The notes: a model not told the origin generated them from the letters alone. A stretch of 64,000 nt of DNA from Planctomycetota bacterium (GCA_021819825.1 JAKAEZ010000001.1:71600-135599); one strand, 5' to 3'; shown: positions 38,784 through 62,639, counted from the first letter of the stretch. Made by a program: numbers and translations.

Positions 38784-38846
38784 AAGCCATTGTCCGGGGC
38801 CGGGATTCCTCGCTTGTGTGCTCTAAAACCACGGCCAATTTACGCC

Positions 38847-40391
38847 TCATGCACTCCAAAGAGCCAGTTTGCCGGCAGTGGTTGCTTTTTGTTTCCGCGC
38901 AGCGTTTGTCTTGCGACGGCTTGATTCGCCAAAGAGGCTGTCATAGGTCGTTTGCGTGCCGAGTTCATTTGCCAAAAGCCGAAGATTCAGCCGGCCCAGC
39001 AGATCAACGGTAATGGGGCGTTTAGAATCCCAAAAGACATAGGAGTTGAAAAACTCCCGTGCGATATCGGAATTCAGAAGATCGACCAAGTAATCCGCGG
39101 CATGTTGTGTCGGACATGGGAGAAAGTAACAGGTGTCATCCAGAACAAACGGTTTCCCGTCGGCGGAGCCTATACTGACGAAATTAAGTTTCTTATAGAA
39201 GCCGGAAATCGCAACCTTCCATGGACTGAACGAATAATCGCCCACGCCAAAAATAGAAAACTTTGGCTTGCCAAGATAAATGGAACTTTTTCGTTGCTTG
39301 AATAAATCGGCGTGTGCTTGCAGATAATTCCATGTCAGAGGGGCGTAGTCTTTGATGATGGAAGTGTCATCCCCGACGCGCCTTTGCGGCACCAACATCC
39401 AACGCCCGGAAAATTTCGCGCTGCCACCGGAGATTTCAGAGCTTTTAAGCATCGGAAACAGGTAGGTATCCTCCAAGCTTACCAGTTCGGCAAGCCCATT
39501 GCGATATTGGTCTCCGTCTCGACGCAGTTCCATAATCCGGGAACAGTCGTGTTTAATCCCCGAGCGCCAGGAGATAGATTCGTCGCCCGTCAGGTGGCAC
39601 CAGCGACGATGCATATCAAGGTTAGCGATCAGCGTGCCATCCCTATAGGCAACGGTGCTGGTTGCCTCATGCGCTGTGAGACCCGGGTACACGGTCGCCG
39701 TGTTATTCGTTGATTGAGAACCAAATTGGATCACCAGCAGGGACGCCTGCACAGCCGCGTTGAAGTGGTAATCAGCGTCTATCCTATACATGGCGGCATT
39801 TTTGACACCCAAATCCAATCCCCAACAGTGGGCAAGAATCTTGCGGGCAACTGTGGTTTTACAAAGCATGGCCAGAGAGCCGCCACTGCGGTCAAGTTGC
39901 TCGACAATTCGAAGCAACATAGATTCTGAAATATCAAAGTTAGCTTTGCCTGTTATGGCATCACAGCCGGTGCGATTCTGGAAATTACTCTTCACCGGAA
40001 GATTCCTACCACCGAAGGTTCCCAGATGTGTGTTGGTCACCCAAGGCGGATTACCCAGCACGAGCAGGGGTTGTGGAAGGGTGCTGAAAATATTGGCCAA
40101 ATCGGCCTGAAAAAAATCTCCCTCAATCAGGCGAACCTTTTGGTTATCTTTTCTCTGCCCAAGGGCTTCCGCGGCTTGCGCAATGTGGCGCACATTGATA
40201 TCCATACCAAATGCGCTGGTAACATCAGGAAATTGATCCAGCCCCGCGAACAGTAAATTCCCGCGGCCGCAGGTTGGCTCAAATAATGACGCGGGCCGGA
40301 CTCCTTGTTCGGCGAGCAACTTACACACCGCGCGGCCTAATTCAATTGGGGTTTGAAAGTCGCCGTACTCAATTATTTCTCTGGTTTTCAC
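38847..40391 (-). CDS. Type II N6-adenine DNA methyltransferase (gamma-class; TaqI/Eco57I-like) with a C-terminal target-recognition region
   Basis: Motif I FEPTCGRGNLL and motif IV LGNPPW. GTG start lying 19 nt after the upstream putative REase. Confidence 0.85.
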   Translation of the reverse strand: MKTREIIEYGDFQTPIELGRAVCKLLAEQGVRPASLFEPTCGRGNLLFAGLDQFPDVTSAFGMDINVRHIAQAAEALGQRKDNQKVRLIEGDFFQADLANIFSTLPQPLLVLGNPPWVTNTHLGTFGGRNLPVKSNFQNRTGCDAITGKANFDISESMLLRIVEQLDRSGGSLAMLCKTTVARKILAHCWGLDLGVKNAAMYRIDADYHFNAAVQASLLVIQFGSQSTNNTATVYPGLTAHEATSTVAYRDGTLIANLDMHRRWCHLTGDESISWRSGIKHDCSRIMELRRDGDQYRNGLAELVSLEDTYLFPMLKSSEISGGSAKFSGRWMLVPQRRVGDDTSIIKDYAPLTWNYLQAHADLFKQRKSSIYLGKPKFSIFGVGDYSFSPWKVAISGFYKKLNFVSIGSADGKPFVLDDTCYFLPCPTQHAADYLVDLLNSDIAREFFNSYVFWDSKRPITVDLLGRLNLRLLANELGTQTTYDSLFGESSRRKTNAARKQKATTAGKLALWSA

Positions 40392-40410
40392 GACTACACA
40401 CTCACTAGCA

Positions 40411-41073
40411 CTAGCGAAGTTTTCTTATGCCCTCTACCTGTCCGGCTTTTTCTATTACACGGCTGTATTGTAATCGCCATTGGAGGGCATTGGATATCGT
40501 CAAATATCCCTGGGGCGGTTTGTTTTTCAACAGCTCCTCGGCGATCTTTTTCGCTTCGATTTCATCCAAGGGCAAATTTTTGTCCCCCATAATTGCCATC
40601 AGATCATCTTCATTTCCTTCGTTTTCCAATATCTGCCGAATTAAACGGGTTATCTGATAGTCCCCCGTCCGATTTGCTTCCACATAAACGGCATGCAGAA
40701 TATTCAATGTAGCGGTTCGCGCTTCCGGGATATCCTCTTTATTATAAACAAACACCAGCAACCCGTATCCGAGGCCGTAAATTTTCTGCCGGGCGGATTT
40801 GAACGGGCATGAAGACTGTGGTTGCGTTATGGCCGTCACCTTCATGTCAACGCCCAAATCCGGAAAATCAAGGCCGGAGGCGGAATTGCTCCGAGCAAAC
40901 GTGTATTTGGTTTCGAGATAAGCCCGAAATTTATGCTCCAGGTACGTCCCCACGGCTTTACCATCTGTGACGCCATAAAGCGTCGGCTCGGTATGCGTGG
41001 ACTCGATATCCGCAAAAATTGCGGCTTGCTCACATAGGATATTGGTGGTAAGGCTTGGCACCGACAACGGCAA
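40411..41073 (-). CDS. Putative Type II restriction endonuclease (PD-(D/E)xK candidate)
   Basis: Lies immediately upstream of the MTase and is co-oriented with it. Candidate catalytic core GLDFPDLGVDMKVT (PD…D/ExK-like). The start is uncertain (TTG at 41073 or 41067). Confidence 0.5.
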   Translation of the reverse strand: MPLSVPSLTTNILCEQAAIFADIESTHTEPTLYGVTDGKAVGTYLEHKFRAYLETKYTFARSNSASGLDFPDLGVDMKVTAITQPQSSCPFKSARQKIYGLGYGLLVFVYNKEDIPEARTATLNILHAVYVEANRTGDYQITRLIRQILENEGNEDDLMAIMGDKNLPLDEIEAKKIAEELLKNKPPQGYLTISNALQWRLQYSRVIEKAGQVEGIRKLR

Positions 41074-41358
41074 TACTCCTTGTTCGACCAGATATTGCAG
41101 CGACAGTATACCTCAGTGGCAACTCACACGGAAGAAGCCAATTCGATGCCAATTCGATGGGCGTGGCGATAAATCCGTGCAGGTCTCTGGAGTGTGAGCT
41201 TCCAAGAGAAACCATCCTCTGAACGCCGGCATTGCTGCCGCCGATTTCGCCGCTCGCCCGGGAATCTTGCCATGCCCCATTCGACAAATCCCGTCCGCGC
41301 TGGCACGCTGCCGCCGGTTGCCGTATCTTAATTCGCCGTAGGAATACTTGGAGTGGTT

Positions 41359-49806: not shown

Positions 49807-51126
49807 TTACCAACCCGACGGCTTTACCGTGGAATATTGCGGATCACGCGGGATATGAAAGGCGCTTACCGGATCTGGATGGGCCGGGTTAAAGGGCTTT
49901 AACCCGGGTCGGATAAATGCGGCCAGCGGTAAATGGTCCTTTTGAATGCCCAGTACCACGCATTTGGCGATTTCATAAGCACCGTAATCATCATTATGCG
50001 TGCGATCCACAAAAGCCACTTTCGATCCATCAGGCCCCAGGTAATTAAAAAATTCCGTGCTCATGGCATTGAGATCGATCAGGGGTACATGCTGCTGTTT
50101 GGCAATCAGCCGCATTTCAGTCGGAAAGCCGTCAAGACTGTTATATATTTTGCCATGCCGGTAAAGCCGCCGGGCCATGGGGGTAACCAGGACCGGAATA
50201 GCGCGATGGGCGCGGGCCTGCGCGATCATCGTGAGCAGGGACGTGCGGTATTCATGTTGAGGCCCGGCATTTTTGCCGCGCTCATGCTGATCGTTATGGC
50301 CAAACTCAATAAACAGGTAATCCCCGGGGCGAATCACGCTCATGACTTTCTTCAAGCGATTTTCCCAGATAAAGCTGTTGGCGGATTCACCATCCTCAGC
50401 GTAATTCGCCACCACGACGCGGCGCGGTACAAAAAAGCGTGTGAACATCTGTCCCCAACTGCACCAGGGTTCAAAACGCTGATCCGTATCCGTGGAATCA
50501 CCGGCAATAAAGATCGTGATCGGATGCGCTTTGGTAATGGTCATGGCGCACAAACAGGGACGCGCATTGCTGAATTCAATGGTGAGTTTGTTGTCCCATT
50601 CCAGGGAGCCAATCTCCCGCGGCTTGAGTCGAACCTTGCCACCGGTGGAAATCTCCGGTGTGCGCGTATTAACCGTAAAGGTGCGTGTTACAAATTTTCC
50701 TGGTGCGGTGACGACTTTTTTGAACATCAACCGCCGCTGTTCCGCTTTTACCGTCATAACCGATTTTCCCTTCAGATCCCCAAGCGTCACAGAAACATTA
50801 TAATTTCCCGACGGCAATTTTATTGAAAAAAAGAAGGGTTTGCGACTGGTAACAAACGCTCCGCGTACGCCATGGGTATTACTGCGATGCACGCCTTTTA
50901 CCTTAAAGCCCAGATCGAAACCGTAGCCCCGGGCGGGAGTATAGGCCATATTCGGAAGCACTTGGATATAGCCGGGCACATGCCGACCGGGGCCAAATTG
51001 AAATTTCAAAGGAAGTTGCACCTTGGCGGCTCGCAAAGCGCCCGCAGGCAATGCCATGATTGCCATGCCGATTAGACCCGTTACGGCCATGTTAAAAGCC
51101 AAAGCTGATCTGCCGAATTTAATCAT
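49807..51126 (-). CDS. Secreted SGNH/GDSL hydrolase (rhamnogalacturonan-acetylesterase-like) with an N-terminal beta-sandwich domain
   Basis: Signal peptide, GDS block (IFIAGDSTD) and a DxxH-type C-terminal block (HNDDYGAYE). Confidence 0.75.
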   Translation of the reverse strand: MIKFGRSALAFNMAVTGLIGMAIMALPAGALRAAKVQLPLKFQFGPGRHVPGYIQVLPNMAYTPARGYGFDLGFKVKGVHRSNTHGVRGAFVTSRKPFFFSIKLPSGNYNVSVTLGDLKGKSVMTVKAEQRRLMFKKVVTAPGKFVTRTFTVNTRTPEISTGGKVRLKPREIGSLEWDNKLTIEFSNARPCLCAMTITKAHPITIFIAGDSTDTDQRFEPWCSWGQMFTRFFVPRRVVVANYAEDGESANSFIWENRLKKVMSVIRPGDYLFIEFGHNDQHERGKNAGPQHEYRTSLLTMIAQARAHRAIPVLVTPMARRLYRHGKIYNSLDGFPTEMRLIAKQQHVPLIDLNAMSTEFFNYLGPDGSKVAFVDRTHNDDYGAYEIAKCVVLGIQKDHLPLAAFIRPGLKPFNPAHPDPVSAFHIPRDPQYSTVKPSGW

Positions 51127-51288
51127 TCCAGTTACTCCGCAATACCTAACCGCTAATGAGCCACGATTCGGTTAAGAATATATCAGTTGCATAAAGAAAT
51201 GTCGAGCCAATATCACAATAATTATTCATGCAATTTGCATTAATTACCATGGTGAGACCAGAGATAAATTATTCGTCTTATAAAAGTG

Positions 51289-54200
51289 TTATTGCCCAGG
51301 TTGATGACTTTGAATCCATGCAGGCCCCGGCAGCGCGTAAGGGCGGAATTTTTCCATCACGCCTTGCTCCTCACTGCATGACAGGCCGCGGTAGAAGCCC
51401 AGATTATTGGCGGCCGGCGAGTCAATTAAACTGCTGGAATCCGCTGCACTCATCTGAAAAAGCACCCGGTTGTCAAATTCTCTCTGGGCAGATCGTTCAA
51501 ATGTGCGTTCCAATGACGCCAAGGTATCCACCCAAGTCAAGATGTGAATACCAACTCCTGGGCCATCACGCAGAATTTCACTAAATTCCTTCGCCGGGTT
51601 GGGGGCCTTGGCCTCATCACCTGAAGACATCGAGAAGCTAAAGTCGTCCTCGTTTTTCCGCAACATTCGGTAACGCTGGAGAGCGAAAATAAAAAGAAAT
51701 GTCTCCGGCGCATTGGGCGACTCTTCGGCCAGGCGACGATGAACCTCCTGGTTAACTGAGTGAATCGTATCTCCGATGCCTCGCCATTCGACGATTTGCA
51801 CGTCCGGGCCTAATGCGGGCGTGAGACGTTCAAATGTACCGGCCAAGCGGGAATCCGCCGCCAACCCATCCATGATATAAAATTTTGCCCCCCCACGCGG
51901 ATACTGTGCCGCTAAGGAAATCAGCGACCAGACCATCAGTGATAGCGCTTGTTCCTCCTGCTGGCCGACCAGCAGAACATTGGATCCGCTTTGCCGCCGC
52001 AGGGTCAGATCGGTAGGCTCTTTAATGGCCACCGGCTCGCCAATCCACGCGCGGGCTGAGGTCGGAATAGTCGTGGGCCTGTCGCCGGCCAGGAGAGCAC
52101 TTAGTTGTTTATTCATCTGGGCATCCGCCGGAGCATTGCCCTCAAATATGACCGGTGGCTCAAAGTGGAATGAAGCATCCTTGGCACGACTGCTGATTTG
52201 ATCCAGATAAATTTCCCGCTTTTCATCCGGCAGCCACGCCACCTGGAACGGGCTGTTAGCCTCTACCAAACCACCGGCATCATTGTAAATTGCGGCACCC
52301 GGGCGGGAAAGCAATCGCGCCGCCGAGTTATTATCTCCCAAGATTATCTGCGAATCCGCCTCGCTTACTTGCAGCGCAATGCGCACGGCCATTTGGCCGA
52401 TGGTGCTGCGGGCCAATCCGGAAGTACCGCCGATAGTTTGCGACCCCAGCAGCAGGTGAATGCCAAAGGCTCGGCCTTGGCGTACCAGACGATCCATTAA
52501 CAATCCGGCTTGTTGGGCCAATTTGTCATCTTCGGAAAAAAATTCCTGAAATTCGTCAATCACCAGCAGAGTTCGCGGCATGGTTTGCGCACCCGCGCTG
52601 CGACGATATGACGGCAAGTCCTGGACTCCCGCCTTGCGGAATAATTCACCACGGCGTGCCAATTCTACATCCAGACGTTCCAAAACACTTAAGCCAAACT
52701 CCCTATCACTTTCTACCGCGATCGCCCGGGCATGGGGCAGGTGATGGGTGGCATAGGTTTTAAATTCCACGCCTTTTTTAAAGTCGATCAGATACAGCTC
52801 AATTTGATCCGGTGAATACCACATCGCCAGATTGGTCACAATCGCGTGCAGCAGCGTGGATTTGCCCGAACCGGTTTTCCCAGCCAGCAGCGCGTGTTGA
52901 GCCATCGCCCGGCCCAGACGCAACATCTGCAGCCGCGTAGCCCCCATACGACCGATTGGAACAGCCAGCGAGTCCGAACTGTCGAGCGACCAAAATTCTG
53001 CATCGCCCGGCGCGATGGTATCAAAGGAGACTTCAACATTCTGATTGGCTTTGGCGGCCTGGCCAATTTTATCCAAGAGCGGTGTAAACACTTCCTCGGT
53101 GGGCGGCTGATCCAGTGCAAGCGGGAACTGGCCGAACACATCATCCTTCCAACTAAATGATTCCGCCTTCTGCACAATATTGACGCAGTGCGCGGCGATA
53201 TCCTCCAGTTGCGTTGCCGAGCCGGCAGGCATTTGCATATCACCCGCCGCCAGCAGATATACGCCGCAACGCGCGCCCGTCGCGGCAATACTGGCCAGCC
53301 GCCGCAGGCAATCTCGCTCAAAACCGGACGGAAAATCAGCAATAACGACAAAGCGGTATGGCTCGGCCAATTCACCGGCCTGCGCGTTGTAATCATCAAT
53401 GGTGGCAAATTCATTGCGCAGATATTTTTGAATGACTGTTTCCATGTGTTCCGTAAGGTCTGAAAGCCGCTGCTCAATTTGTTCCGGGCGCGTCCAGATT
53501 CGCCCCCCCACCAGCGCCTCATCATGATCGGCAAGCCGCATAAACCCCGCAAAATTCTGCCCCAGTCCTACGGGATCAATGATGGTAAATCTGGCCCGGC
53601 CGGGCGGCAATTGCGTGAGAATACTGATCATCACCGATTGCAGCATCTGCAGGGCCGCCGGCCGCCCGGTACGGTCATAGCGCACCAGCATGGAGGCACC
53701 AAAGGGAAATTCCAGCGCTGCCGGCACCGCAAAGGCCGCCGGGAATTCCAACTTTACCGCATCACCTTTAGCGCCGGCGGCGACCACCCGCTTGAGATCT
53801 ACCGAAAACTCGCCCAAGCGGATAACTTTTGGAAAAATATTTGATGGCGTCCAGTTTTCCCATGACGGCGTGCCGTGGCGATCAACGTTTTCTTTTATCG
53901 ACATATTCCCATTGGTGTGCTGGTCGGAAGATGGCTCGGGGATATGCGCCAAACCATTTTTCAACCGGTTTTTCAGCGTCAGCATGGCCTGATCATATTG
54001 CGCCCGGTTATCCGCCAGACGTTCTTCGTATTGTCGCTGTGCAGCAAGAATATCCGCGTCGTGCTGCTTCCGTATGGCCTGGTTCTGGGATTCGCTTTCT
54101 TCTTGCGCAGCGCAAACCGCGGCGGCGCGTTGCGCATCACTTTCAGCTTTGCTGGTGTCATATTGCTGCTGGGACTCCTGCCGCCGTGCGGTGCGCTTGG

Positions 54201-55245
54201 CTTCAATGTTTTGTGCCGCTGCGGCGGCCTTCTGCTTTAATTCCTGCAACTCGCGCAATGCTTTGGCACGGGTATCGGCGAAGTGCGCCTCGTGCCGTTG
54301 GGCCACCATTTCAGCATGTTGTTTTGCGGCCTGCCGCGCTGACGCAATGGCGACATTCAGGGGTTGATTGATTGCCAGTAAGCCGGCCTTCGCCCATGAA
54401 CGGAGCACCAATCCAAGAATAATAGCGCCCGCGAAGGTCCCGCCCACCGCCATGGCAATGACATTAACTTGCACCGGGGTAGAACCCGACAGGCCATAAG
54501 CCACCGCCCCCGCCGCCCCGCATAGCAATATGAGGAATATCCACGGTGCAACGCCGTAAACCAGCCGCGGCAGCAGTAATCGACGAAGAGCCGCCAATTC
54601 TCTCTGGGCGGATTCCAAGTGTGCGGCCATGGCAGCTCTCTGGTCCTGGCCTTCCAGCGCGGCAATGCCTGGGGTTTCCGGTGCTCCCGGCGGCCGACGG
54701 AAACACCGCGCCATCAAAGCCGCCGCGGATTGCGCCACTTCCGCCAGAGCCTGTTCGTGCTCATGGAACACTTTGCTTAGTTCTTCATCTTCGGCACGAA
54801 TCTGATTGCGGGCCGTTTCCACTTCTCCTTCGGCCAGCCATTTGGCTTCTTCTATTTGATTGCGGACTTTCCGCTGCGCATCCGCGTTTTCCCATTTGAT
54901 GGCCGCTTGGGCCTGATTATATTCTTCCGTGCACTGTGCCAGACGGCCCTGATAATCGGCGGCGATTTTTTCCGCAGTGCGTTCACGTTGCGCCGTAAGC
55001 TTTTCAACTTCAAGAGAATATCGGCTCTCTATCTGCGCCAGCGTGTTGTCGCGATCTTTTTTCGCCTGTTCATTGGCGACCCGAAATTGCCGCTCAATCT
55101 GGGACTCATCGGTTGTGCATTGTGCGGCCAAACTTAGCAGGTCGCGCAGCACAGATTTTTGAGCATCGCGCCGGGGACACGCGGCACCATGCTTCTCGGT
55201 CAACGGCGAAACGCGCGGATCAGTCTTTGGGTGTAACTGGGTCAT
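51289..55245 (-). CDS. FtsK/SpoIIIE-family triple P-loop ATPase, T7SS EssC/EccC-like (atypical architecture)
   Basis: Length 1318 aa. The layout is a ~230-aa coiled-coil N-terminus, 2 TMs, a second coiled coil, then three FtsK-like domains. Only the middle domain has a canonical Walker A (LLAGKTGSGKST) and Walker B (LLVIDEFQEF). Confidence 0.85.
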   Translation of the reverse strand: MTQLHPKTDPRVSPLTEKHGAACPRRDAQKSVLRDLLSLAAQCTTDESQIERQFRVANEQAKKDRDNTLAQIESRYSLEVEKLTAQRERTAEKIAADYQGRLAQCTEEYNQAQAAIKWENADAQRKVRNQIEEAKWLAEGEVETARNQIRAEDEELSKVFHEHEQALAEVAQSAAALMARCFRRPPGAPETPGIAALEGQDQRAAMAAHLESAQRELAALRRLLLPRLVYGVAPWIFLILLCGAAGAVAYGLSGSTPVQVNVIAMAVGGTFAGAIILGLVLRSWAKAGLLAINQPLNVAIASARQAAKQHAEMVAQRHEAHFADTRAKALRELQELKQKAAAAAQNIEAKRTARRQESQQQYDTSKAESDAQRAAAVCAAQEESESQNQAIRKQHDADILAAQRQYEERLADNRAQYDQAMLTLKNRLKNGLAHIPEPSSDQHTNGNMSIKENVDRHGTPSWENWTPSNIFPKVIRLGEFSVDLKRVVAAGAKGDAVKLEFPAAFAVPAALEFPFGASMLVRYDRTGRPAALQMLQSVMISILTQLPPGRARFTIIDPVGLGQNFAGFMRLADHDEALVGGRIWTRPEQIEQRLSDLTEHMETVIQKYLRNEFATIDDYNAQAGELAEPYRFVVIADFPSGFERDCLRRLASIAATGARCGVYLLAAGDMQMPAGSATQLEDIAAHCVNIVQKAESFSWKDDVFGQFPLALDQPPTEEVFTPLLDKIGQAAKANQNVEVSFDTIAPGDAEFWSLDSSDSLAVPIGRMGATRLQMLRLGRAMAQHALLAGKTGSGKSTLLHAIVTNLAMWYSPDQIELYLIDFKKGVEFKTYATHHLPHARAIAVESDREFGLSVLERLDVELARRGELFRKAGVQDLPSYRRSAGAQTMPRTLLVIDEFQEFFSEDDKLAQQAGLLMDRLVRQGRAFGIHLLLGSQTIGGTSGLARSTIGQMAVRIALQVSEADSQIILGDNNSAARLLSRPGAAIYNDAGGLVEANSPFQVAWLPDEKREIYLDQISSRAKDASFHFEPPVIFEGNAPADAQMNKQLSALLAGDRPTTIPTSARAWIGEPVAIKEPTDLTLRRQSGSNVLLVGQQEEQALSLMVWSLISLAAQYPRGGAKFYIMDGLAADSRLAGTFERLTPALGPDVQIVEWRGIGDTIHSVNQEVHRRLAEESPNAPETFLFIFALQRYRMLRKNEDDFSFSMSSGDEAKAPNPAKEFSEILRDGPGVGIHILTWVDTLASLERTFERSAQREFDNRVLFQMSAADSSSLIDSPAANNLGFYRGLSCSEEQGVMEKFRPYALPGPAWIQSHQPGQ

Positions 55246-55269
55246 AGTTATGAATGCCTCGCCGACGGT

Positions 55270-55488
55270 TTACTGACAATCGCGCCGCACCTGCGTAAGC
55301 ACCATGGCGATATGTTCCATGGCGTTGGCGGCCGCGTGCAGGTCGGTAGCCAAGGGTTCAAGAAATTTTTTCTCAAAGCGGGCGCTGGCGGCATCATTCC
55401 AGCCAAACTTCACTTCCTCCCAGCTTAGCTGGAGGTGATTCAATGCCTTGGCCAATTGCCCGCGACCTTCATAAACACCCATAAACAA
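55270..55488 (-). CDS. Small helical WXG100-like protein (WxD variant)
   Basis: About 70 aa with central GWNDAASARFEKKF, matching the W-x-G…F…F pattern of the ESAT-6/EsxA hairpin. Immediately upstream of the FtsK-like gene. The start is TTG at 55488 or ATG at 55482. Confidence 0.5.
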   Translation of the reverse strand: MFMGVYEGRGQLAKALNHLQLSWEEVKFGWNDAASARFEKKFLEPLATDLHAAANAMEHIAMVLTQVRRDCQ

Positions 55489-55542
55489 GCCCGCCCTTTT
55501 TCTTGCACCATTTGTGAACCTCGCAGCGACAGGCTGGTACGT

Positions 55543-56574
55543 TTACTTTCGCTGCGTGCCGACATCTCGCCCCTGGGGGTCCTTAATCTCTGCACTGCCC
55601 TGCAAATCCAATATAACAGAAAAACCCACCGGGAGTTTCAGAATTTTTAGCCACTCCGGACTTTTTTGTGCAATATCAGCCACCGTAATCGACCGCCATG
55701 GGCCATGGGCCTTACCCAGTGGCATAAGGCACCAGCCTGTGTCTTCAGGTGATAACGGCTCTGTGCGACGTAGCGTCAGCAAGCACGGTTGGTTATCAGT
55801 TGACTCGGCGAAAGTTATCTTCGCTTCCGGGCGTAATGTCGGGTCCTCACCGGCGAGAGGTTCAATGGCACTAAGCTGCGAATCAGTTAACGTCGGAGCA
55901 GCAAAAGGCCACTGCTTTTGCGGTGCCGCAATGCGGCGTTCTTCGGAACTGGGAAGCAAGAGGTCGCTTTCAAGGCGTTGTGGGGTTGGCTCTTTGGACC
56001 CCGGCGCGCCACGCGACATAACCGCACCCTCCGCCGCCGGGGAGACAAGCGTAAACGGCCCGGCGTTTTCCGAACTTACACCGCCGGGGCTTGCAATGGA
56101 AGCGTATGCCTGCAATTCCGCGACAAGCCGTTCCAGATGCGTTACGCCCGCCGGCACCAGAGATTCCACGCTTGTCGCAAGGCGCTGTACCGAACCTTTA
56201 TATAATTCCACTTCTTTTTGTAAGGCCCGTGTCCAGCGCCGCACATTGGCCAATTTTTGCTCGGCCTCGGTCAATCGGACCATGGCACGTTGTAATTCTT
56301 TTTGCTCCTCAATGGCGGATAACGGTTTTCCGGAATGATCCCGGAAAAGTTTCTTCATACGGACCGCCTCCTTGGCCCGTTCAACGGCGGTTTGGCGTTT
56401 GCGTGTTTGATCTTTCCAGAAGTTTTCCTGCTCAATTTCCAGCCAGAGCATGGTGCGACGCAATTCGGAGTCCGCATCTTCCATGGCGGCGTTGGCTGCC
56501 GCCTGAAACTTCCAGAGCACCGCCTGGAAGCCGACCAGCAAATCCACAGATTCAACCCGAGCGCTCTCGGCCAT
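55543..56574 (-). CDS. Hypothetical protein: helical/coiled-coil N-domain plus Pro/Ser-rich low-complexity C-terminus (candidate secreted substrate)
   Basis: ATG start at 56574, 343 aa. The N-terminal ~160 aa are predicted helical (LWKF…, WLEIEQENFWKD). The C-terminal half is P/S/A-rich. Confidence 0.55.
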   Translation of the reverse strand: MAESARVESVDLLVGFQAVLWKFQAAANAAMEDADSELRRTMLWLEIEQENFWKDQTRKRQTAVERAKEAVRMKKLFRDHSGKPLSAIEEQKELQRAMVRLTEAEQKLANVRRWTRALQKEVELYKGSVQRLATSVESLVPAGVTHLERLVAELQAYASIASPGGVSSENAGPFTLVSPAAEGAVMSRGAPGSKEPTPQRLESDLLLPSSEERRIAAPQKQWPFAAPTLTDSQLSAIEPLAGEDPTLRPEAKITFAESTDNQPCLLTLRRTEPLSPEDTGWCLMPLGKAHGPWRSITVADIAQKSPEWLKILKLPVGFSVILDLQGSAEIKDPQGRDVGTQRK

Positions 56575-56583
56575 GATGCAGTC

Positions 56584-56883
56584 CTATCGCTCGTTAAGGT
56601 ATTTTTCTATATGCTGCGCTTTCTTCATCAAAACCTTGGCGTGCTCGGTCGATGATTCCATGAACTTCCCCAGATACTGCGCCGCCTGATCAAAAGTTTC
56701 GGCAAACTTTTGCTGCTCCTGATCGCGCCAGCTTGATTCCAGAGACCGCAGCCGGGAATTTAATCCCGACATAAGCCCTTCCAGATCATTATTAAACTGC
56801 ATCAGCCCCTGGGCAAACCGCCGCAACTCCGCCGGATCAACACTCGCTTTGGCCATACGATTCATCTCCGTGTATGCCGCCAA
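56584..56883 (-). CDS. WXG100-family (ESAT-6/EsxA-like) small protein, WxD variant
   Basis: Helical hairpin of 90-99 aa with central SSWRDQEQQKFAETF (WXG-like). The likely start is the ATG at 56856 (RBS GGAG with a 9-nt spacer); the track start at 56883 is TTG. Confidence 0.65.
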   Translation of the reverse strand: MAAYTEMNRMAKASVDPAELRRFAQGLMQFNNDLEGLMSGLNSRLRSLESSWRDQEQQKFAETFDQAAQYLGKFMESSTEHAKVLMKKAQHIEKYLNER

Positions 56884-57259
56884 TCAACTTAAACATAGCC
56901 TACCATTGAAACCAACAGACACCAAGACGTTTCTCCGCTGGTTGCGGGGATGGGCGTGGCAATAATTCCGGGCGGGCATCCGCGATGCGAGTTTCCAAGG
57001 CCAAGCATTCTCTTAGCGCCTGCTTTTATGCCGTCGATTTCGCCGCCTCCCTGGAAATACTGCCACGCCCAAGCGTATGCACCTACCCTCCTCCCGCCAC
57101 GCCTCAACCCGCAAACGCGCAAACCCACAAGCCGCAAATTAACCGATCAATACGCCATTTACCGCCAATCCCAAACCTCCCGCCCCCGTCGGTGACAAAT
57201 TCCAAATACCAAATGCTCTCCCCGGTTATTCGTTATTCGTTGAGAATATTGATTTGCGA

Positions 57260-57403
57260 TCAGTGTCCTTTGATCAGCGGAAAGGACTCCTGATTGCTCG
57301 TCCAACCCCCTGTCCCCTGTAACCCCCGCCGGAGGGCGGTTGTGCCGGAATTTATCCCGTGCGCGCCGGGATGGTGAAATTTGTTATCGTTCAGTGCAAC
57401 CAT
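57260..57403 (-). pseudogene. Truncated 5' stub of the MVALNE-leader / RHS-tail cassette family (47 aa)
   Basis: Encodes MVALNDNKFHHPGAHGINSGTTAL… and then terminates. It shares the conserved ~78-nt 5' element with the 59747 and 62639 copies. Confidence 0.5.
57326..57403 (-). repeat. Conserved ~78-nt element (leader codons plus 5' flank) of the MVALNE cassette family, copy 1
   Basis: About 90% nucleotide identity to 59673-59747, with the differences including a 3-nt in-frame indel. Confidence 0.7.
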
Positions 57404-57603
57404 AACCCAGTCCATAACACGAAACCGACGATTTCGACACTTTACCGCCGCCAACTCCTCTCTCGGCGAAGCCGTCGCATTCATTAAAACCGTCGTTATT
57501 TCCATTAACTAATCACGTCCGCGCATATGCGATCCCTCCGTTCAGAAAACCGCTTAATGGATCCGCAGCGGAGCGGCCTGTTGGGTAGCCTTTCGCATCC
57601 ACA

Positions 57604-58716
57604 TCATTTCCTTTCAGATGGATGCGTTTTTACCGGTAGCCATTCGACCGCAACGACATGCTTTCGGCCTCGACCTGAAGCAAAGCCAAAGATCATCCCA
57701 CGCGACGTAATAGCGTAGGCTTGCGAGAAGCTATACCGGAGCGGCAGTAGTTTCTGCAGGTCAGTTGCGCTTTCTGGGGTCCCATTCCATACCATCGCGT
57801 GTGCCATGCCGTGAATACGGCTGGTTCCGTACCCCACCTCCTGCCTGCCGTTTGTGCTGTTTGCACAGGACACGGCGCACCCGCTGGGGTTTAAGTCGAC
57901 GAACCTTTTCCCTGACGTGAACCACAGGATGGCGTGGCCGCCTTTGACACCCTTGAGCCGTCCATAGCCCACTATTCTACCGCCACCAGTGCCCACCGCT
58001 TTTGACCAAGCGTATTCTCGAGGATTGAGATCAACCGCGCTCGCTGCGCTTCCCCGCCAAAGCAGTGCCTGATATTTTCCATTTAAGCGTTTTCCGAACC
58101 CAACCTGGTGAACACCGTCCGTTGCCACCGCCTCTGATGAAACGAATCCTTTGGGATTCAGATTAATAAAGCTTTGCGGGCTACCTCTCCAAATCGCGGC
58201 ATAATCCAAATCTCCCGGGGCCTCCACGTAGCCTACTTCTTGGCTAGCTCGCACCGAAATGGCCTGAGAGAATTTAAATCCACGTGGGTTGAGCAGGATC
58301 ACACCTTGGGCCACTCCCGACCATAGAAGGGCCCCACCACGATCGCCGGGCATTTGGCCTGCGCCTACCTGCCATCTCCCGTTTGTGCCTTCCGCGTCCG
58401 ACCAGAGAAACCCTTTCGGGTTTAAATCAACGATGCCCTCCCCTCCAACCCCGCCCAATAGCGCGTGGCCGAAGTGCCGGTGTCCCAACCTCAATCCCAT
58501 ACCAACCCATCGGCCGCCACGGGCCCCCTGAGCAACCGCCTGCCAATAGCCGGGAGTCTTCAAAATGACCGCACGGTATTTCGTGGCCGGCGGAACGCCG
58601 TGGCTCGTTCTCCCCAACGGCCCGATGTGTCCGCGCGCTGGGTTAGCCGCCAGAGGGATTTGGCAATGCACCGACAGGAGGATGGCCATTGCGACTATAC
58701 ACAAGCGCTGGATCAT
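57604..58716 (-). CDS. Secreted HAF-family extracellular repeat protein (~8 x ~40-aa repeats)
   Basis: Signal peptide MIQRLCIVAMAILLSVHC. Repeats carry the HA(F/I)LW…DLNP…S.A…GYG pattern, for example HAILWFTSGKRFVDLNP, HAMVWNGTPESATDL and ALLWRGSAASAVDLNP. Confidence 0.7.
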   Translation of the reverse strand: MIQRLCIVAMAILLSVHCQIPLAANPARGHIGPLGRTSHGVPPATKYRAVILKTPGYWQAVAQGARGGRWVGMGLRLGHRHFGHALLGGVGGEGIVDLNPKGFLWSDAEGTNGRWQVGAGQMPGDRGGALLWSGVAQGVILLNPRGFKFSQAISVRASQEVGYVEAPGDLDYAAIWRGSPQSFINLNPKGFVSSEAVATDGVHQVGFGKRLNGKYQALLWRGSAASAVDLNPREYAWSKAVGTGGGRIVGYGRLKGVKGGHAILWFTSGKRFVDLNPSGCAVSCANSTNGRQEVGYGTSRIHGMAHAMVWNGTPESATDLQKLLPLRYSFSQAYAITSRGMIFGFASGRGRKHVVAVEWLPVKTHPSERK

Positions 58717-58841: not shown

Positions 58842-59747
58842 TCAAGTAGGCGGAGGCCACATGTTGAACGATGGCGACGGAGTGGGGGAGGGCGGAGGCA
58901 TCAGTGATCTCGCCCAATTGACCAACGAGTCCGCTTCCGCCATGAGATCGCGGTAGCTCGGTTCGCAACCATCTTCCAACAGTTGTTGCATTTCCTGGCT
59001 TGCGTCGCCTACCGCGTAAGCCATCCCAGCCCCCTCAAAGGGAACGCTGGTGCCACCGCTCTCAAGTGCGTCATTAATATCCCACAACAGGGAACCCAGC
59101 GTCAGGGCAAGCTTGGCGGCGTCCGCGGCACATTTTTTATCACATTGCATCTCCAGGGAATGCTCTTGTGATTTTATCTGCTGCCACCTTGCCCAAGCCC
59201 ATAAATTGCCGCCCGAAAGATTGGGCGGCAGCAAGCCCCAAGCGTCCCTGCCCACCGGGTCTATTTCCGCCTGGCCGCCCACATACTCATACAAATTCAC
59301 GCCACCGGCGTAGTCGATGGGATCGCGTTGCAGCACCCGAGTCGCCACTCCTGTGGCCCGTCGGGATTTCGGCTCCTGCCTCAACACCGTGCCAGGAATC
59401 GAGTTGTGCCTGCGGTTGCGAGCGTAATAGAGTTCCGTTTCCGGATCGTTTAGGCCCGTCCCGATATCCGTTGAAACACGAATGTTATCGGGATACCCGC
59501 AGCAAATGATTTCATCGGCACCGACGCTTCGCTCAATGACCAATGAGTAATGATCAATGAACAAATCATTGGAAGTTCGGCGTTTCTGGCCAGTGGTCCG
59601 TGATCGTTGATCAATGAAGTTCACCCCAGATTCCCCGTTCCGCTGTAACCCGCAACCCGTAACCTGTAACCTCCGCCAGAGGGCGGTTGTGCCGGAATTT
59701 ATCCCGTGCGTGCCGTTATGGTGAAATTTTTCGTTCAGTGCAACCAT
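58842..59747 (-). CDS. MVALNE-leader protein with a degenerate RHS repeat-associated core and a variable C-terminal (toxin-like) domain
   Basis: MVALNEKFHHNGTHGINSGTTAL leader. Degenerate core (…DPETELYYARNRRHNSIPG…LQRDPIDYAGGVNLYEYVGG). A unique C-terminal region of ~150 aa with a PPSPTPSP tail. A stop codon lies 2 codons upstream of the ATG. Confidence 0.6.
   Translation of the reverse strand: MVALNEKFHHNGTHGINSGTTALWRRLQVTGCGLQRNGESGVNFIDQRSRTTGQKRRTSNDLFIDHYSLVIERSVGADEIICCGYPDNIRVSTDIGTGLNDPETELYYARNRRHNSIPGTVLRQEPKSRRATGVATRVLQRDPIDYAGGVNLYEYVGGQAEIDPVGRDAWGLLPPNLSGGNLWAWARWQQIKSQEHSLEMQCDKKCAADAAKLALTLGSLLWDINDALESGGTSVPFEGAGMAYAVGDASQEMQQLLEDGCEPSYRDLMAEADSLVNWARSLMPPPSPTPSPSFNMWPPPT
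59673..59747 (-). repeat. Conserved element of the MVALNE cassette family, copy 2
   Basis: See copy 1. The 5' UTR motif ccgcaaaag…agccaat is additionally shared with copy 3. Confidence 0.7.
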
Positions 59748-61358: not shown

Positions 61359-62639
61359 CTACAATAGCGCGGGGGCAGTTCCACCAAGCATTGAAATCGC
61401 TTGCCGGATCAGCGCCAAGGCAAGCGTCGCGTCCTGCAGAGCGCCCGCAAGCGCAAGTTCAGGAAGTTCGGCCCAAGCTACGGCCGCAACGGCCCCCGCA
61501 AGTGCCCACTTGTTTAGCGTGGCTTGCCCCGAAAACATCGCGTCGAAATCAAAACGGTAACAAACGCATTTCTGGTCCGACCAACTGTAGTAACTCCCTA
61601 CTATCGTGCCACCTTCATAGATCGATACCAATGGCCCGCCGATCCACACGCCGGCCATTAAATTAACTGAAAAAACACCAAAATCTGTGTTGGTGGTGGC
61701 GATGATTCCGCCGGGGATCAATGCCGCTGTGTGGAATATCCTTGGGGGAACGATCCATTCGTTCCGGCATTCGCTTTCCGAACGAGAGGTACGCACCTTG
61801 GAAACGCCAGCCGAACCTTCGACACCAATCCCGGCTAATTCGTGGCCAAAGAGCGATATCTCGCCTCCAAAGCCGAAGAGCACGTCAATGTAGTGCCTTC
61901 CAATTCGCCAGTGGACTGAGGGCTGCCCCCAAGGGTTGAAGCCACCGTGCAGCCCTGCTGCGTCTCCGGTGATCGCCGCCCGTCCCCCCACATACTCATA
62001 CAAATTCACGCCGCCGGCGTAGCCGATTGGATCGCGTTGCAGCCAGCGGCCAAGGGTCGGGTTGTACGTTCTCGCGCGGACATAGTAGAGTTCTGTTTCG
62101 GGATCAAACCTGTACCCGCAATAAATAATTTCATTGGCGCCGTAGGAAGATTGCACATCGTCGTCCGTGAACCAGATGCTATCTGCGCCAGGACCGGTGA
62201 AGATCAGCGTATTGCCGTAGGCATCAGTATCTTAAGCCTCGACAATCGCGCCAGATGAATTGGTCAATGCCACAGCGCGATACAAAAAATCTTGCAGCAG
62301 GTAGTACGCGCCAGCAGGCAGGGATTGCGGGCCGAGCGGAACCAGCGTGGTGAGCTGAATTAGCTCATCAACGTATGTTCCCCAGATGTACTGCCGGATC
62401 GGTGCGTCGCTGGAGTTCCTTTCTTCCATGCACTGCCAGCCAGCCCATATATAGTCTGTCGTGCCATTGGGGATGTTTCCAGTCAAGCCGCCATTGAAAT
62501 AATTTTCTGCCACAGAGGCCACCGAGGACTCAGAGGCCCCACGATTCGCGGCACCGTCAGATGGCGCGAACTCCCCTTTCCGGCCCACGCTTCGTGTCGT
62601 CGTGTCGTTGTTGTGAAAATGTTCGTTTAGTGCAACCAT
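61359..62639 (-). pseudogene. MVALNE-leader RHS-tail polymorphic toxin cassette with canonical RHS core, interrupted by one in-frame TAA
   Basis: ORFs 62232-62714 and 61359-62156 are in the same frame. They are separated only by TAA at 62232-62234, inside the RHS motif …GAIVEA*DTDAYGNTLIFTG…. The canonical core is YCGYRFDPETELYYVRARTYNPTLGRWLQRDPIGYAGGVNLYEYVGG, followed by a ~210-aa unique C-terminus. Confidence 0.65.
62612..62639 (-). repeat. Conserved element of the MVALNE cassette family, copy 3 (partial; leader codons only)
   Basis: ATGGTTGCACT(A/G)AACGA… is shared with copies 1 and 2. Confidence 0.55.

What the first reader, a model, noticed from the sequence alone, without database searches (positions are those of the whole stretch)
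51289..55245. Atypical EssC-like ATPase: coiled-coil N-terminus instead of FHA domains, and only the middle P-loop domain is catalytically intact
The N-terminal ~230 aa and residues ~300-440 are strongly coiled-coil (AQRERTAEKIAADYQGRLAQ…) and flank two TMs. Of the three FtsK-like domains only D2 has Walker A GKTGSGKS and Walker B LLVIDEF. D1 (RFTIIDPVGLGQNF…VVIADFP) and D3 (LLVGQQEEQALSL…) are degenerate. In canonical EssC/EccC, D1 is the conserved active domain and the N-terminus carries FHA domains.
Basis: seen in the sequence. Interest (0 to 1): 0.6.

Follow-up and report, generated by a model that had tools for sequence, protein, structure and literature searches.

The report
Planctomycete type VII-like secretion ATPase
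This gene encodes the membrane motor of a small four-gene, type VII-like protein export cassette that is conserved across hundreds of Planctomycetota species, a phylum where such systems have not been characterised, and only one of its three ATPase-like domains can burn ATP.

Summary
The ORF is real: window 51289-55245, minus strand, 1318 aa. It has a helical N-terminus, two hydrophobic segments, a second helical stretch and three FtsK-fold domains.

Only the middle domain keeps Walker A, Walker B and the FtsK arginine-finger position. These are invariant in 108 of 108 relatives. The first and last domains lack a P-loop throughout the family.

Canonical EccC/EssC also has a dead ATPase-like DUF domain before the active D1, and degenerate D2 and D3 after it. 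The active domain here matches EccC/EssC D1 best. The layout is therefore most simply DUF-like, then D1, then one degenerate domain, which is one domain fewer than EccC.

The distinctive features are:
- a 230-aa helical N-terminus and a ~150-aa stalk, with no FHA domains;
- a tight operon of WXG100 (90 aa), a 343-aa helical protein, a 70-aa WXG100 paralogue and the ATPase;
- conservation of that operon in 57 of 62 related genome loci with enough upstream sequence;
- at least 574 species genomes carrying the first domain; the 80 best-matching loci are nearly all Planctomycetota.

No curated family model or paper found here describes it. My verdict is a new variant of a known kind, with moderate to high interest.

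The parts
51289..55245 (-). Gene for the 1318-aa membrane ATPase (stop codon included)
   Evidence: ORF and translation. 13 full-length homologues at 39-97% identity. More than 100 further relatives of about 1300 aa.
54562..55245 (-). N-terminal region, aa 1-228. Rich in Ala/Glu/Arg/Leu/Gln, presumed helical and cytoplasmic. Poorly conserved.
   Evidence: Composition A17 E12 R10 L10 Q9 %. Column conservation 0.27. No Pfam family in 35 members. Heptad test weak, z 1.8. Not modelled.
54376..54561 (-). Two predicted transmembrane helices (aa 231-249 and 262-284) joined by a loop of about 12 residues
   Evidence: Kyte-Doolittle 19-residue windows score 2.07 and 2.28. Hydrophobic segments fall in the same region in the relatives inspected.
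53866..54375 (-). Post-membrane helical 'stalk', aa 291-460. The core, about aa 291-440, is Ala/Gln/Arg/Glu-rich.
   Evidence: Composition. Marginal profile hits to ATP synthase subunit b and apolipoprotein A-I, both long helices, at E 0.004-0.03. Heptad test z 0.9.
53002..53865 (-). First FtsK-fold domain, aa 461-748. A pseudo-ATPase in the position of DUF. P-loop position xxxG527-R528-xxA, Walker B position A636-[D/N]637, R659 at the FtsK finger position, and an invariant 'IIDP' strand.
   Evidence: AF2 model alone, pLDDT 75.6. Foldseek hits to EccC and FtsK at E 1e-9 to 6e-10. Motif counts in 108 members. Helix alpha1 starts one residue after beta1. Diagnostic of the family: 1411 cluster representatives at E<=1e-30.
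52210..53001 (-). Second FtsK-fold domain, aa 749-1012. The only catalytically competent ATPase, closest to EccC/EssC D1.
   Evidence: Pfam FtsK_SpoIIIE at E 4.6e-30. Aligns to EccCa profile positions 413-654 and to 4nh0 residues 276-491. Scores D1 > D2 > D3 in the T7SS ATPases where several domains score, and D1 is best in 12 of 12.
52858..52881 (-). Walker A G789-KTGSGK-S796
   Evidence: Sequence. G789, T791, G792, S793, G794, K795 and S796 are each 108 of 108; K790 is 99 of 108. A canonical six-residue loop lies between beta1 and alpha1 in the model.
52552..52569 (-). Walker B L893-LVID-E898, with D897-E898 the acidic pair
   Evidence: D897 and E898 are each 108 of 108. R925 in 'GRAFGIH', the FtsK arginine-finger position, and Q936 are also 108 of 108.
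51292..52209 (-). Linker plus third FtsK-fold domain, aa 1013-1318. A pseudo-ATPase and the presumed substrate-docking or regulatory domain. P-loop position G1094-Q1095-x-[DE]-[ED]; P1229 at the finger position.
   Evidence: hhalign against the second domain at 92% probability. Motif counts. The P-loop is shortened to 3 residues in the model. Weak hhalign matches to EccC/EssC D1 and D2, scores 54-72.
55270..55482 (-). Gene 's': a 70-aa WXG100-like helical protein with W-x-D in place of W-x-G. It ends 24 bp upstream of the ATPase start.
   Evidence: Weak WXG100 hits: Pfam E 0.19 and TIGR03930 E 0.005. jackhmmer started from it recruits all 63 WXG100 genes of the related loci. Called as 70 aa in relatives.
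55543..56574 (-). Gene 'M': a 343-aa protein. It has a conserved helical N-terminal domain of about 165 aa (W44 and W53 invariant) and an optional C-terminal Imm33-like domain.
   Evidence: Present in 66 of 85 loci. Imm33-like at E 1.9e-5, below the Pfam cutoff. 25 of 68 members carry the same extra C-terminal domain. No informative Pfam or PDB hit for the N-terminal domain.
56584..56856 (-). Gene 'W': a 90-aa WXG100 protein (motif W-R-D). First gene of the cassette.
   Evidence: Pfam WXG100 at E 1.2e-10, 41.9 bits, above the 27.3 cutoff. TIGR03930 at E 2.3e-8, below its cutoff. Called as 90 aa in relatives.

Best explanation
The gene encodes the membrane-anchored motor ATPase of a compact, type VII-like (WXG100) export cassette. 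The cassette has four genes, W-M-s-ATPase, and is conserved in Planctomycetota. WXG100 genes also lie upstream of the two family members examined in Chloroflexota.

**Architecture.** Two transmembrane helices anchor the protein. With two helices both termini lie on the same side, so the helical N-terminus (about 230 aa), the helical stalk (about 150 aa) and all three FtsK-fold domains are cytoplasmic.

**Proposed roles of the three domains.**
- The middle domain is homologous to EccC/EssC D1 and is the only one able to bind and hydrolyse ATP. By analogy with the FtsK family it probably acts in a hexameric ring, with R925 as the trans-acting arginine finger.
- The first domain is a nucleotide-free pseudo-ATPase in the position of the EccC DUF domain. 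It most likely couples the motor ring to the stalk and membrane pore and contributes contacts between protomers.
- The last domain is a second pseudo-ATPase. By analogy with EccC D3 and EssC D3 it most likely docks the cargo, meaning the two small WXG100-type proteins with or without M, and gates the motor.

**Shown versus inferred.** Shown here are the ORF, the motif states and their conservation, the predicted folds, and the gene linkage with its conservation. Hexamer formation, substrate docking, actual export and the identity of the cargo are inferred.
For: - **T7SS-type homology.** The only curated hits are EccCa, EssC and EccCb, and all cover the active domain. The best PDB sequence hits are EccC, EccC5 and YukB. 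The three-domain AF2 model (pLDDT 85.2, pTM 0.70) has T. curvata EccC as its top fold match, at E 1e-31 over 960 columns. EccC and EssC D2-D3 come next, then FtsK.
- **Hallmark partner.** A WXG100 gene above the Pfam threshold lies in the same operon, together with a second, divergent WXG100 paralogue.
- **Conserved cassette.** W, M and s lie upstream on the same strand in 57 of 62 genome loci with at least 1.8 kb of upstream sequence. The flanking genes are unrelated from locus to locus. WXG100 genes are also upstream in two Chloroflexota loci.
- **One live domain, two dead ones.** Motif counts in 108 members show this. The dead domains are still well conserved, at 0.60 and 0.56 against 0.27 for the N-terminus, which argues for a retained function other than catalysis.
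- **Active domain equals D1.** Its profile scores 71-99 bits on D1, 15-60 on D2 and 18 or less on D3 in 12 T7SS ATPases. hhalign gives 183/136/78 against EccC D1/D2/D3 and 211/152 against EssC D1/D2.
- **First domain resembles DUF.** It is the first ATPase-fold domain after the membrane. Helix alpha1 starts one residue after beta1, so there is no P-loop. This is the feature reported for EccC DUF domains and S. aureus EssC D3, where an Arg in the degenerate motif pairs with a Walker B acidic residue (PMC11154593). Here R528 and D/N637 are conserved.
Against: - No other T7SS core component (EccB/D/E, MycP, EssA/B, EsaA, or ubiquitin-like EsaB/YukD) is present in the cassette or elsewhere in the window.
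- Scores against the EccCa and EssC models are far below their curated cutoffs: 129 against 509 and 101 against 778.
- Planctomycetota have an outer membrane, and nothing here explains how cargo would cross it.
- Sequence methods do not link the first domain to DUF or to any specific EccC domain. The best hhalign score is 35 or less, at about 10% probability.
- Its model resembles canonical ATPase domains (E about 1e-9) more than solved DUF structures (E 4e-6 to 4e-4).
- No YxxxD/E export signal is evident in the C-termini of W, s or the M N-terminal domain, judged by eye from the consensus.
- No experiment supports export.
Confidence: 0.72

Rival explanations
1. The three domains are orthologues of EccC/EssC D1, D2 and D3. 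The DUF domain was lost, or replaced by the helical stalk, and catalytic activity moved from D1 to D2.
For: - The three-domain model aligns colinearly with the D1-D3 crystal structure 4nh0 over 960 columns.
- The first-domain model matches canonical FtsK and EccC ATPase domains (E 6e-10 to 5e-8) better than solved DUF domains: 9qks_G at 4e-6 and 8rin at 3.8e-4.
- It keeps the FtsK-like 'IDP' strand and an Arg at the finger position.
Against: - The active domain is closest to D1, not D2, in 12 of 12 T7SS ATPases and in profile-profile comparison. This could partly reflect D1 being the least diverged domain.
- Only about 530 aa follow the active P-loop, against about 850 in the EccC-type sequence P0017. 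The missing domain is therefore at the C-terminal end.
- A colinear alignment of three similar folds does not show orthology.
- A dead first domain followed by an active one is exactly the canonical DUF-D1 order.
Confidence: 0.15
2. The machine is homologous to T7SS but does not secrete across the envelope. The ATPase and its WXG100-type partners would serve an intracellular or inner-membrane housekeeping role, such as envelope or developmental remodelling. This would fit its near phylum-wide conservation and its chromosomal, housekeeping neighbourhood.
For: - The cassette is found in at least 574 species genomes, with very uniform architecture.
- It sits among housekeeping genes, and the flanks differ between genomes.
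- M is not polymorphic. All long forms share one C-terminal domain.
- No toxin or immunity array is conserved next to it. None of 85 related loci has an Rhs motif.
- No outer-membrane component is linked to it.
Against: - Every characterised WXG100 plus EccC/EssC pair is an export system (PMC11217815; PMC4010439).
- The two-helix membrane anchor and the stacked ATPase-fold domains are those of a translocase.
Confidence: 0.1
3. It is a DNA translocase of the FtsK/SpoIIIE/TraB/TcpA type, acting in chromosome segregation or conjugation, or an FtsK-domain component of an anti-phage defence system of the SspH or MADS type.
For: - Pfam FtsK_SpoIIIE is the only family-specific Pfam domain detected; the other hits are generic P-loop families on the same stretch.
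- PADLOC reports hits to the FtsK-like modules of SspH (E 1.6e-31) and mads8 (E 4e-20).
- FtsK motor and TcpA appear among the fold matches.
Against: - There is no FtsK gamma (winged-helix) domain and no 4-TM FtsK N-terminal domain in the window protein or in 35 relatives.
- The PADLOC hits cover only the P-loop domain, aa 760-1000.
- No defence, conjugation or relaxase genes lie nearby.
- The tandem triple FtsK-fold layout and the conserved WXG100 linkage are T7SS features.
- A separate ftsK is reported as conserved in all planctomycetes (PMC12673574).
Confidence: 0.03

Closest known systems
EccC, the T7SSa motor ATPase of Actinomycetota (T. curvata EccC, PDB 4NH0/4N1A; M. tuberculosis EccC5, PDB 7NP7/8RIN)
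   Same: - Two N-terminal transmembrane helices with cytoplasmic tandem FtsK-fold domains.
- One fully canonical ATPase domain (D1), preceded by a nucleotide-free degenerate ATPase-fold domain and followed by degenerate domain(s).
- No FHA domains.
- Operon linkage with WXG100 proteins.
- It is the best sequence and fold match.
   Different: - Three ATPase-fold domains here, against four in EccC (DUF plus D1-D3).
- A helical region of about 230 aa precedes the membrane anchor, and a helical stretch of about 150 aa follows it.
- The last domain has no P-loop lysine at all.
- No EccB, EccD, EccE or MycP partners.
- Scores far below the EccCa and EccCb model cutoffs.
- Found in Planctomycetota and Chloroflexota.
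EssC/YukB, the T7SSb motor ATPase of Bacillota (G. thermodenitrificans EssC 4LYA, S. aureus EssC 5FV0, B. subtilis YukB 9QKS)
   Same: - The same membrane-anchored tandem FtsK-fold plan.
- D1 is the active domain.
- A C-terminal domain with a collapsed P-loop is known in S. aureus EssC D3.
- WXG100 partner proteins.
   Different: - EssC has two N-terminal FHA domains; none is present here or in 35 relatives.
- EssC has DUF plus three domains.
- EssA, EssB, EsaA and EsaB partners are absent.
- The TIGR03928 score is 101 against a cutoff of 778.
TsxC ATPases of the T7SSc-j variants (Garrett, Higginson & Palmer 2024, PMC11217815)
   Same: - Variant T7SS loci defined by an EccC/EssC-type ATPase plus WXG100 proteins.
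- Some lack FHA domains, for example TsgC.
- Some loci are small.
- Extra small WXG100-like partner proteins are common.
   Different: - Those subtypes are described only in Bacillota and Actinomycetota.
- Most contain a ubiquitin-like TsxB, which is not found here.
- The W-M-s-ATPase cassette and the helical N-terminus are not among them.
FtsK/SpoIIIE DNA translocases
   Same: [quoted passage not shown]
- FtsK motors are strong fold matches.
   Different: - FtsK has a single motor domain, a gamma DNA-recognition domain and a 4-TM N-terminal domain. None of these applies here.

Membership tests
T7SS motor ATPase (EccC/EssC superfamily) | Tandem FtsK/SpoIIIE-fold domains in one membrane protein | tested here: met
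   Three alpha/beta domains in the AF2 model (pLDDT 85.2). Top fold match is EccC 4nh0 at E 1e-31. The first domain alone matches EccC and FtsK at about E 1e-9. The third domain matches the second by hhalign at 92%.
T7SS motor ATPase (EccC/EssC superfamily) | Two transmembrane helices N-terminal to the ATPase domains | tested here: met
   Hydrophobic segments at aa 231-249 and 262-284. Hydrophobic segments fall in the same region in the relatives inspected. This is a hydropathy calculation only; no dedicated topology predictor was available.
T7SS motor ATPase (EccC/EssC superfamily) | One canonical active domain (D1) with Walker A, Walker B and an arginine finger | tested here: met
   K795, D897, E898 and R925 are each 108 of 108. 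This domain scores best on D1 of 12 of 12 T7SS ATPases and by hhalign.
T7SS motor ATPase (EccC/EssC superfamily) | Degenerate ATPase-like DUF domain between the membrane and D1 | tested here: inconclusive
   A dead FtsK-fold domain occupies that position. It has an extended alpha1 in place of a P-loop and a conserved Arg, as described for DUF. There is no significant sequence link to DUF, and the fold match to DUF structures is weaker than to D1-D3.
T7SS motor ATPase (EccC/EssC superfamily) | Four ATPase-like domains in all (DUF, D1, D2, D3) | tested here: not met
   Only three are present. About 530 aa follow the active P-loop, against about 850 in the EccC-type sequence P0017. The N-terminus and stalk are compositionally helical rather than alpha/beta, but they were not modelled.
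T7SS motor ATPase (EccC/EssC superfamily) | Genetic linkage with WXG100 protein(s) | tested here: met
   W is a WXG100 protein at 41.9 bits, above the 27.3 cutoff. W, M and s are all present in 57 of 62 loci.
T7SS motor ATPase (EccC/EssC superfamily) | Score above the curated NCBIfam cutoffs (EccCa TIGR03924, EccCb TIGR03925, EssC TIGR03928) | tested here: not met
   129.3 against 509, 88.4 against 347, and 100.7 against 778. All hits are confined to aa 750-991.
T7SSb EssC specifically | N-terminal FHA domains | tested here: not met
   No FHA hit in the window protein or in 35 relatives.
T7SSa or T7SSb systems as a whole | Additional core membrane components (EccB/D/E and MycP, or EssA/EssB/EsaA/EsaB) encoded with the ATPase | tested here: not met
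   The cassette has only W, M and s. None matches those families. The rest of the window is housekeeping. Genes elsewhere in the genome could not be checked.
T7SS (functional definition) | ATPase-dependent export of WXG100 substrates | not testable with these tools
   This needs genetics and secretome analysis.
WXG100 family (for the partner genes W and s) | Helical hairpin of about 100 aa with a central W-x-G turn, matching PF06013 | tested here: inconclusive
   W passes the Pfam threshold but is below the TIGR03930 cutoff. s reaches only E 0.19 and E 0.005, but jackhmmer joins it to W. Both carry W-x-D rather than W-x-G, family-wide. Their structures were not modelled.
FtsK/SpoIIIE DNA translocase | Single motor domain plus a C-terminal gamma (winged-helix) domain and a multi-pass N-terminal domain | tested here: not met
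   No Ftsk_gamma (PF09397) or FtsK_4TM hit in the window protein or in 35 relatives. True FtsK hits do carry them.

The most novel reading that the evidence does not exclude
The W-M-s-ATPase cassette is a distinct, previously unclassified type VII-like subtype. It is a minimal four-gene machine with a three-domain motor (pseudo-ATPase, ATPase, pseudo-ATPase) and a long helical stalk. It is near-ubiquitous in diderm Planctomycetota and also present in Chloroflexota. It would then be either a stripped-down or ancestral form of T7SS, or a housekeeping exporter into the planctomycetal periplasm. Either way it extends T7SS biology well beyond Actinomycetota and Bacillota.
Probability: 0.5. Interest if true: 0.75.

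Novelty: new variant of a known kind. Interest (0 to 1): 0.6.

Why it matters
Current T7SS papers describe the system as a feature of Actinomycetota and Bacillota (abstracts). A 2011 survey by Sutcliffe, cited in PMC4010439 but not held in the library, noted WXG100 and FtsK-type gene pairs in other phyla. As far as this library shows, it was not followed up.

I found that one uniform ATPase family, with a conserved four-gene cassette, occurs in at least 574 species-level genomes. These include cultured planctomycetes such as Singulisphaera sp. Ch08.

If it is a working exporter, three things follow:
- It is the simplest known T7SS-type machine. That makes it useful for asking what the minimal translocon is, and what the pseudo-ATPase domains (DUF and D3) contribute when only one catalytic site exists.
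- It raises the question of what a T7SS-like motor does in a diderm with an unusual envelope.
- The dead domains are strongly conserved: 0.60 and 0.56, against 0.77 for the live domain and 0.27 for the N-terminus. They are a good natural test case for non-catalytic roles of ATPase folds.

Tried and rejected
- **Linking the first domain to an EccC/EssC domain by sequence.** HMM and hhalign comparisons against EccC and EssC alignments gave nothing significant. The DUF assignment therefore rests on position and on predicted secondary structure.
- **Coiled-coil test.** A crude heptad a/d hydrophobicity score against 200 shuffles gave z 1.8 for the N-terminus and 0.9 for the stalk. That is too weak to claim a coiled coil. 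The hits to apolipoprotein A-I and ATP synthase subunit b are marginal and probably compositional.
- **DUF6661 in the N-terminus.** The hit (E 0.009) appeared in 1 of 35 members and is treated as chance.
- **Promoter and terminator scan of 50900-57700.** Counts equalled the shuffled expectation.
- **Link to the Rhs toxin cassettes upstream.** Rejected as a family feature, because none of 85 related loci carries an Rhs core motif.
- **M as a polymorphic LXG-like toxin.** Rejected. All 25 long C-termini are one homologous domain and 43 of 68 members lack it. Profile searches of its N-terminal domain against PDB and Pfam gave only noise.
- **Defence-system reading.** The PADLOC hits cover the P-loop domain only.
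- **Literature searches** for T7SS or WXG100 in Planctomycetota or Chloroflexota found no description of this family.

Full report
**1. The observation**

The coordinates 51289-55245 bound a single 1318-aa ORF, but it lies on the minus strand. Pfam sees one solid FtsK_SpoIIIE domain at aa 758-937, E 4.6e-30. NCBIfam gives only sub-threshold hits to EccCa, EssC and EccCb, and all fall on aa 750-991.

**2. The protein is the standard form of a large family**

- A first search found 13 full-length relatives at 39-97% identity. One is named 'MAG: Phycisphaerae bacterium, FtsK/SpoIIIE domain-containing protein'. Beyond those came only EccC/EssC/FtsK proteins matching 13-19% of the query.
- A profile of the first domain alone, searched against 1.84 billion cluster representatives, gave 3103 hits at E<=1e-3 and 1411 at E<=1e-30. 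Most of the best 150 are about 1300 aa, with this domain at about residues 420-750.
The best 80 are almost all Planctomycetota: Tepidisphaerales, Phycisphaerales, Sedimentisphaerales, Pirellulales, Gemmatales, Isosphaeraceae and Planctomycetaceae. They include the complete genome of Singulisphaera sp. Ch08.
- Chloroflexota members also exist (P0057, P0080, P0139).
- The closest genome hit is a Planctomycetota MAG at 86% identity (L006). A 97% relative, P0001, comes from GCA_027313145.1.

**3. Motif states across the family**

I aligned 108 members that are 32-78% identical to the window protein.

| Position | First domain | Second domain | Third domain |
|---|---|---|---|
| P-loop | x-x-x-G527(78)-R528(98)-x-x-A531(92); no GK[ST] | G789-K-T-G-S-G-K795-S796, K795 108/108 | G1094(104)-Q1095(102)-x-[DE]-[ED] |
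| Walker B | A636(94)-[D55/N47]637 | D897-E898, each 108/108 | [YHF]-[GDA] |
| FtsK arginine-finger position | R659 (100) | R925 in 'GRAFGIH', 108/108 | P1229 (99) |
| Other | invariant D557-P558 in 'IIDP' | Q936 108/108 | |
| Mean column conservation | 0.60 | 0.77 | 0.56 |

Numbers in brackets are counts out of 108. I mapped the finger position from my own knowledge of FtsK 'ARAAGIH'.

Compare LYLIDFKKGVEF in the second domain and the FtsK 'IDPK' strand.

The N-terminus, transmembrane region and stalk have mean column conservation of only 0.26-0.28. The two dead domains are therefore maintained by selection.

**4. Folds**

- The first domain modelled alone (pLDDT 75.6, pTM 0.77) matches EccC 4nh0 (E 6e-10), FtsK motors, and EccC and EssC D2-D3. 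Solved DUF domains match more weakly: 9qks_G at 4e-6 and 8rin at 3.8e-4.
- The three-domain model built from a 60-sequence alignment (pLDDT 85.2, pTM 0.70) has EccC 4nh0 as top hit, at E 1e-31 over 960 columns.
- The DSSP string is informative about the P-loops. In the second domain six coil residues (789-794) separate beta1 from alpha1, which is a canonical P-loop. In the first domain alpha1 starts one residue after beta1 (Y523, then R525). In the third domain the loop is three residues.
- An extended alpha1 replacing the P-loop is what crystallography reported for EccC DUF domains and S. aureus EssC D3. Those domains do not bind nucleotide (PMC11154593).

**5. Which domain corresponds to which**

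The same paper summarises the canonical plan. It has four cytosolic ATPase-like domains: a degenerate DUF, an active D1 with full Walker motifs and an arginine finger, and D2 and D3 with degenerate motifs and regulatory roles.

- The active-domain profile scores 71-99 bits on D1, 15-60 on D2 and 18 or less on D3 of 12 T7SS ATPases.
- hhalign gives 183, 136 and 78 against EccC D1, D2 and D3, and 211 and 152 against EssC D1 and D2.
- Only about 530 residues follow the active P-loop, against about 850 in the EccC-type sequence P0017.

The most economical mapping is stalk, DUF-like domain, D1, then one degenerate domain. That is one C-terminal domain fewer than EccC, not activity transferred to D2.

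This mapping is not proven. The first domain has no significant sequence similarity to any particular EccC/EssC domain, and its model resembles canonical domains more than DUF structures.

**6. Membrane anchor and helical regions**

Two hydrophobic segments lie at aa 231-249 and 262-284, joined by a loop of about 12 residues. Hydrophobic segments fall in the same region in the relatives inspected. With two helices, both termini are on the cytoplasmic side, as they must be for the ATPase domains.

The 228-aa N-terminus and aa 291-440 are Ala/Glu/Arg/Gln/Leu-rich with few Pro or Gly. They give marginal profile hits to long-helix proteins. My heptad test is weak, at z 1.8 and 0.9. 'Helical' is likely; 'strongly coiled-coil' is not shown. 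No FHA or any other Pfam domain is found there in 35 members.

**7. Genomic context**

Three small genes lie immediately upstream on the same strand:
- W, 56584-56856, 90 aa. Pfam WXG100 at 41.9 bits, above the 27.3 cutoff.
- M, 55543-56574, 343 aa.
- s, 55270-55482, 70 aa. Weak WXG100 hits.

The gaps between the four genes are 9, 60 and 24 bp. The 90-aa and 70-aa starts agree with gene calls in relatives.

The same W-M-s-ATPase order recurs beside relatives that are 65% and 47% identical, and beside one relative whose ATPase gene is split into several ORFs. The flanking genes are unrelated in each case. Among the 80 species-genome loci, 62 have at least 1.8 kb of upstream sequence, and 57 of these carry all three partners.

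jackhmmer started from s recruits every W, so s is a divergent WXG100 paralogue. Both have W-x-D instead of W-x-G, family-wide.

M has a conserved helical N-terminal domain of about 165 aa with no informative Pfam or PDB match. In 25 of 68 cases it also has one and the same extra C-terminal domain, which is Imm33-like and below the Pfam threshold. M is therefore a conserved component rather than a polymorphic toxin.

Two Chloroflexota loci also have WXG100 genes upstream. No EccB/D/E, MycP, EssA/B, EsaA or ubiquitin-like gene is in the cassette. The rest of the window is housekeeping: AddAB, pyruvate:ferredoxin oxidoreductase, NiFe hydrogenase, H+-pyrophosphatase and PntB.

**8. Mechanism**

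The best-supported reading is a minimal T7SS-like exporter.
- A hexameric membrane-anchored motor has a single catalytic tier, the middle domain, with R925 acting in trans.
- A DUF-like pseudo-ATPase tier couples the motor to the stalk and pore.
- A distal pseudo-ATPase tier docks the W:s pair, and possibly M.

Folds, motifs and linkage are shown here. Oligomerisation, docking and export are inferred from EccC/EssC and FtsK.

The main caveats are the absence of other T7SS core proteins, the absence of any route across the outer membrane, and the lack of any experiment. A non-secretory housekeeping role (0.10) and a DNA-translocase or defence role (0.03) are the other rivals. The last is disfavoured for three reasons: there is no gamma domain, the PADLOC hits cover only the P-loop domain, and a separate ftsK is conserved in planctomycetes.

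**9. Novelty**

No NCBIfam or Pfam model captures the family, the first domain, the third domain or M. Source annotations are 'FtsK/SpoIIIE domain-containing' or 'hypothetical'.

The T7SSa-j classification covers only Bacillota and Actinomycetota (PMC11217815). A 2025 review of Planctomycetota mentions no secretion system or T7SS. Searches combining T7SS or WXG100 with Planctomycetes, Planctomycetota or Chloroflexi returned nothing on this family. The only precedent is the 2011 survey by Sutcliffe, cited in PMC4010439. The library does not hold it. From memory, it also lists Planctomycetes among phyla with WXG100 and FtsK-type gene pairs.

I therefore rate this a new variant of a known kind. 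The phylum-wide four-gene cassette and the three-domain, long-stalk motor are the notable points.

Noticed in passing
window 58842-59747 (-) and 61359-62156 (-); repeats at 59267-59334 / 61976-62043 and 57309-57382 / 59656-59729: There are two orphan-like Rhs C-terminal cassettes upstream of the T7SS-like operon on the same strand. Each has an Rhs core end ('DPIGYAGGVNLYEYVGG') followed by a different C-terminal tail. Rhs_assc_core scores 64 bits for 61359-62156 but only 18.9 bits, below its cutoff, for 58842-59747. They share a 68-nt repeat at the core end (91% identity), and a 74-nt repeat (89%) recurs between cassettes. None of 85 related loci has an Rhs motif, so this looks like a strain-specific island. 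The contig of the 97% relative ends about 1 kb upstream of W, in the direction of this region.
   Followed up: partly
window 57604-58716 (-): A 370-aa ORF lies between the cassette and the Rhs modules. It has a hydrophobic N-terminus and five or six repeats of about 45 aa containing '(D/L/N)LNP(K/R)GF..S.A'. It has no Pfam or NCBIfam hit.
   Followed up: no
window 55270-55482 and 56584-56856; related loci L001-L085: Both small WXG100-type proteins carry W-x-D (W-R-D-Q-E in W, W-x-D-x-x-A-R-x-F-E in s) instead of the canonical W-x-G turn. This holds across about 50-60 homologues each.
   Followed up: partly
window 55543-56574 (-), C-terminal about 180 aa: The middle cassette protein M comes in a short form (43 of 68) and a long form (25 of 68). 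The extra C-terminal domain is the same in all long forms and resembles the Imm33 immunity-protein family. It is sub-threshold in the window protein, and the homologue in L003 has an Imm33-like Pfam hit on record.
   Followed up: partly
L005 (9339-13320), L086, L087: In some genomes the ATPase gene is broken up. It is three consecutive ORFs in a 4.2-Mb contig. A 376-aa fragment is found in an Anaerolineae MAG. A Chloroflexi protein (P0139) joins the first domain directly to the third. These may be pseudogenes, assembly frameshifts or real splits of the EccCa/EccCb kind.
   Followed up: no
L047, L048, L076, L080: Four related loci have more than 4.6 kb upstream of the ATPase. Three have no W, M or s gene within the locus, and L080 has only s. 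The partners may be encoded elsewhere in these genomes.
   Followed up: no
window 38000-41300 compared with L088: In the 97% relative, the UvrD/AddA-type helicase gene and the homoserine dehydrogenase gene are about 230 bp apart. In the window they are separated by about 3.4 kb holding three ORFs (38220-38783 +, 38847-40391 -, 40411-41073 -). The 514-aa ORF has no Pfam hit.
   Followed up: no
L073: A 3-kb contig carrying this planctomycete-type ATPase (48% identity) is binned in an 'uncultured Alcaligenaceae' MAG. This is probably a binning error rather than a proteobacterial member.
   Followed up: no
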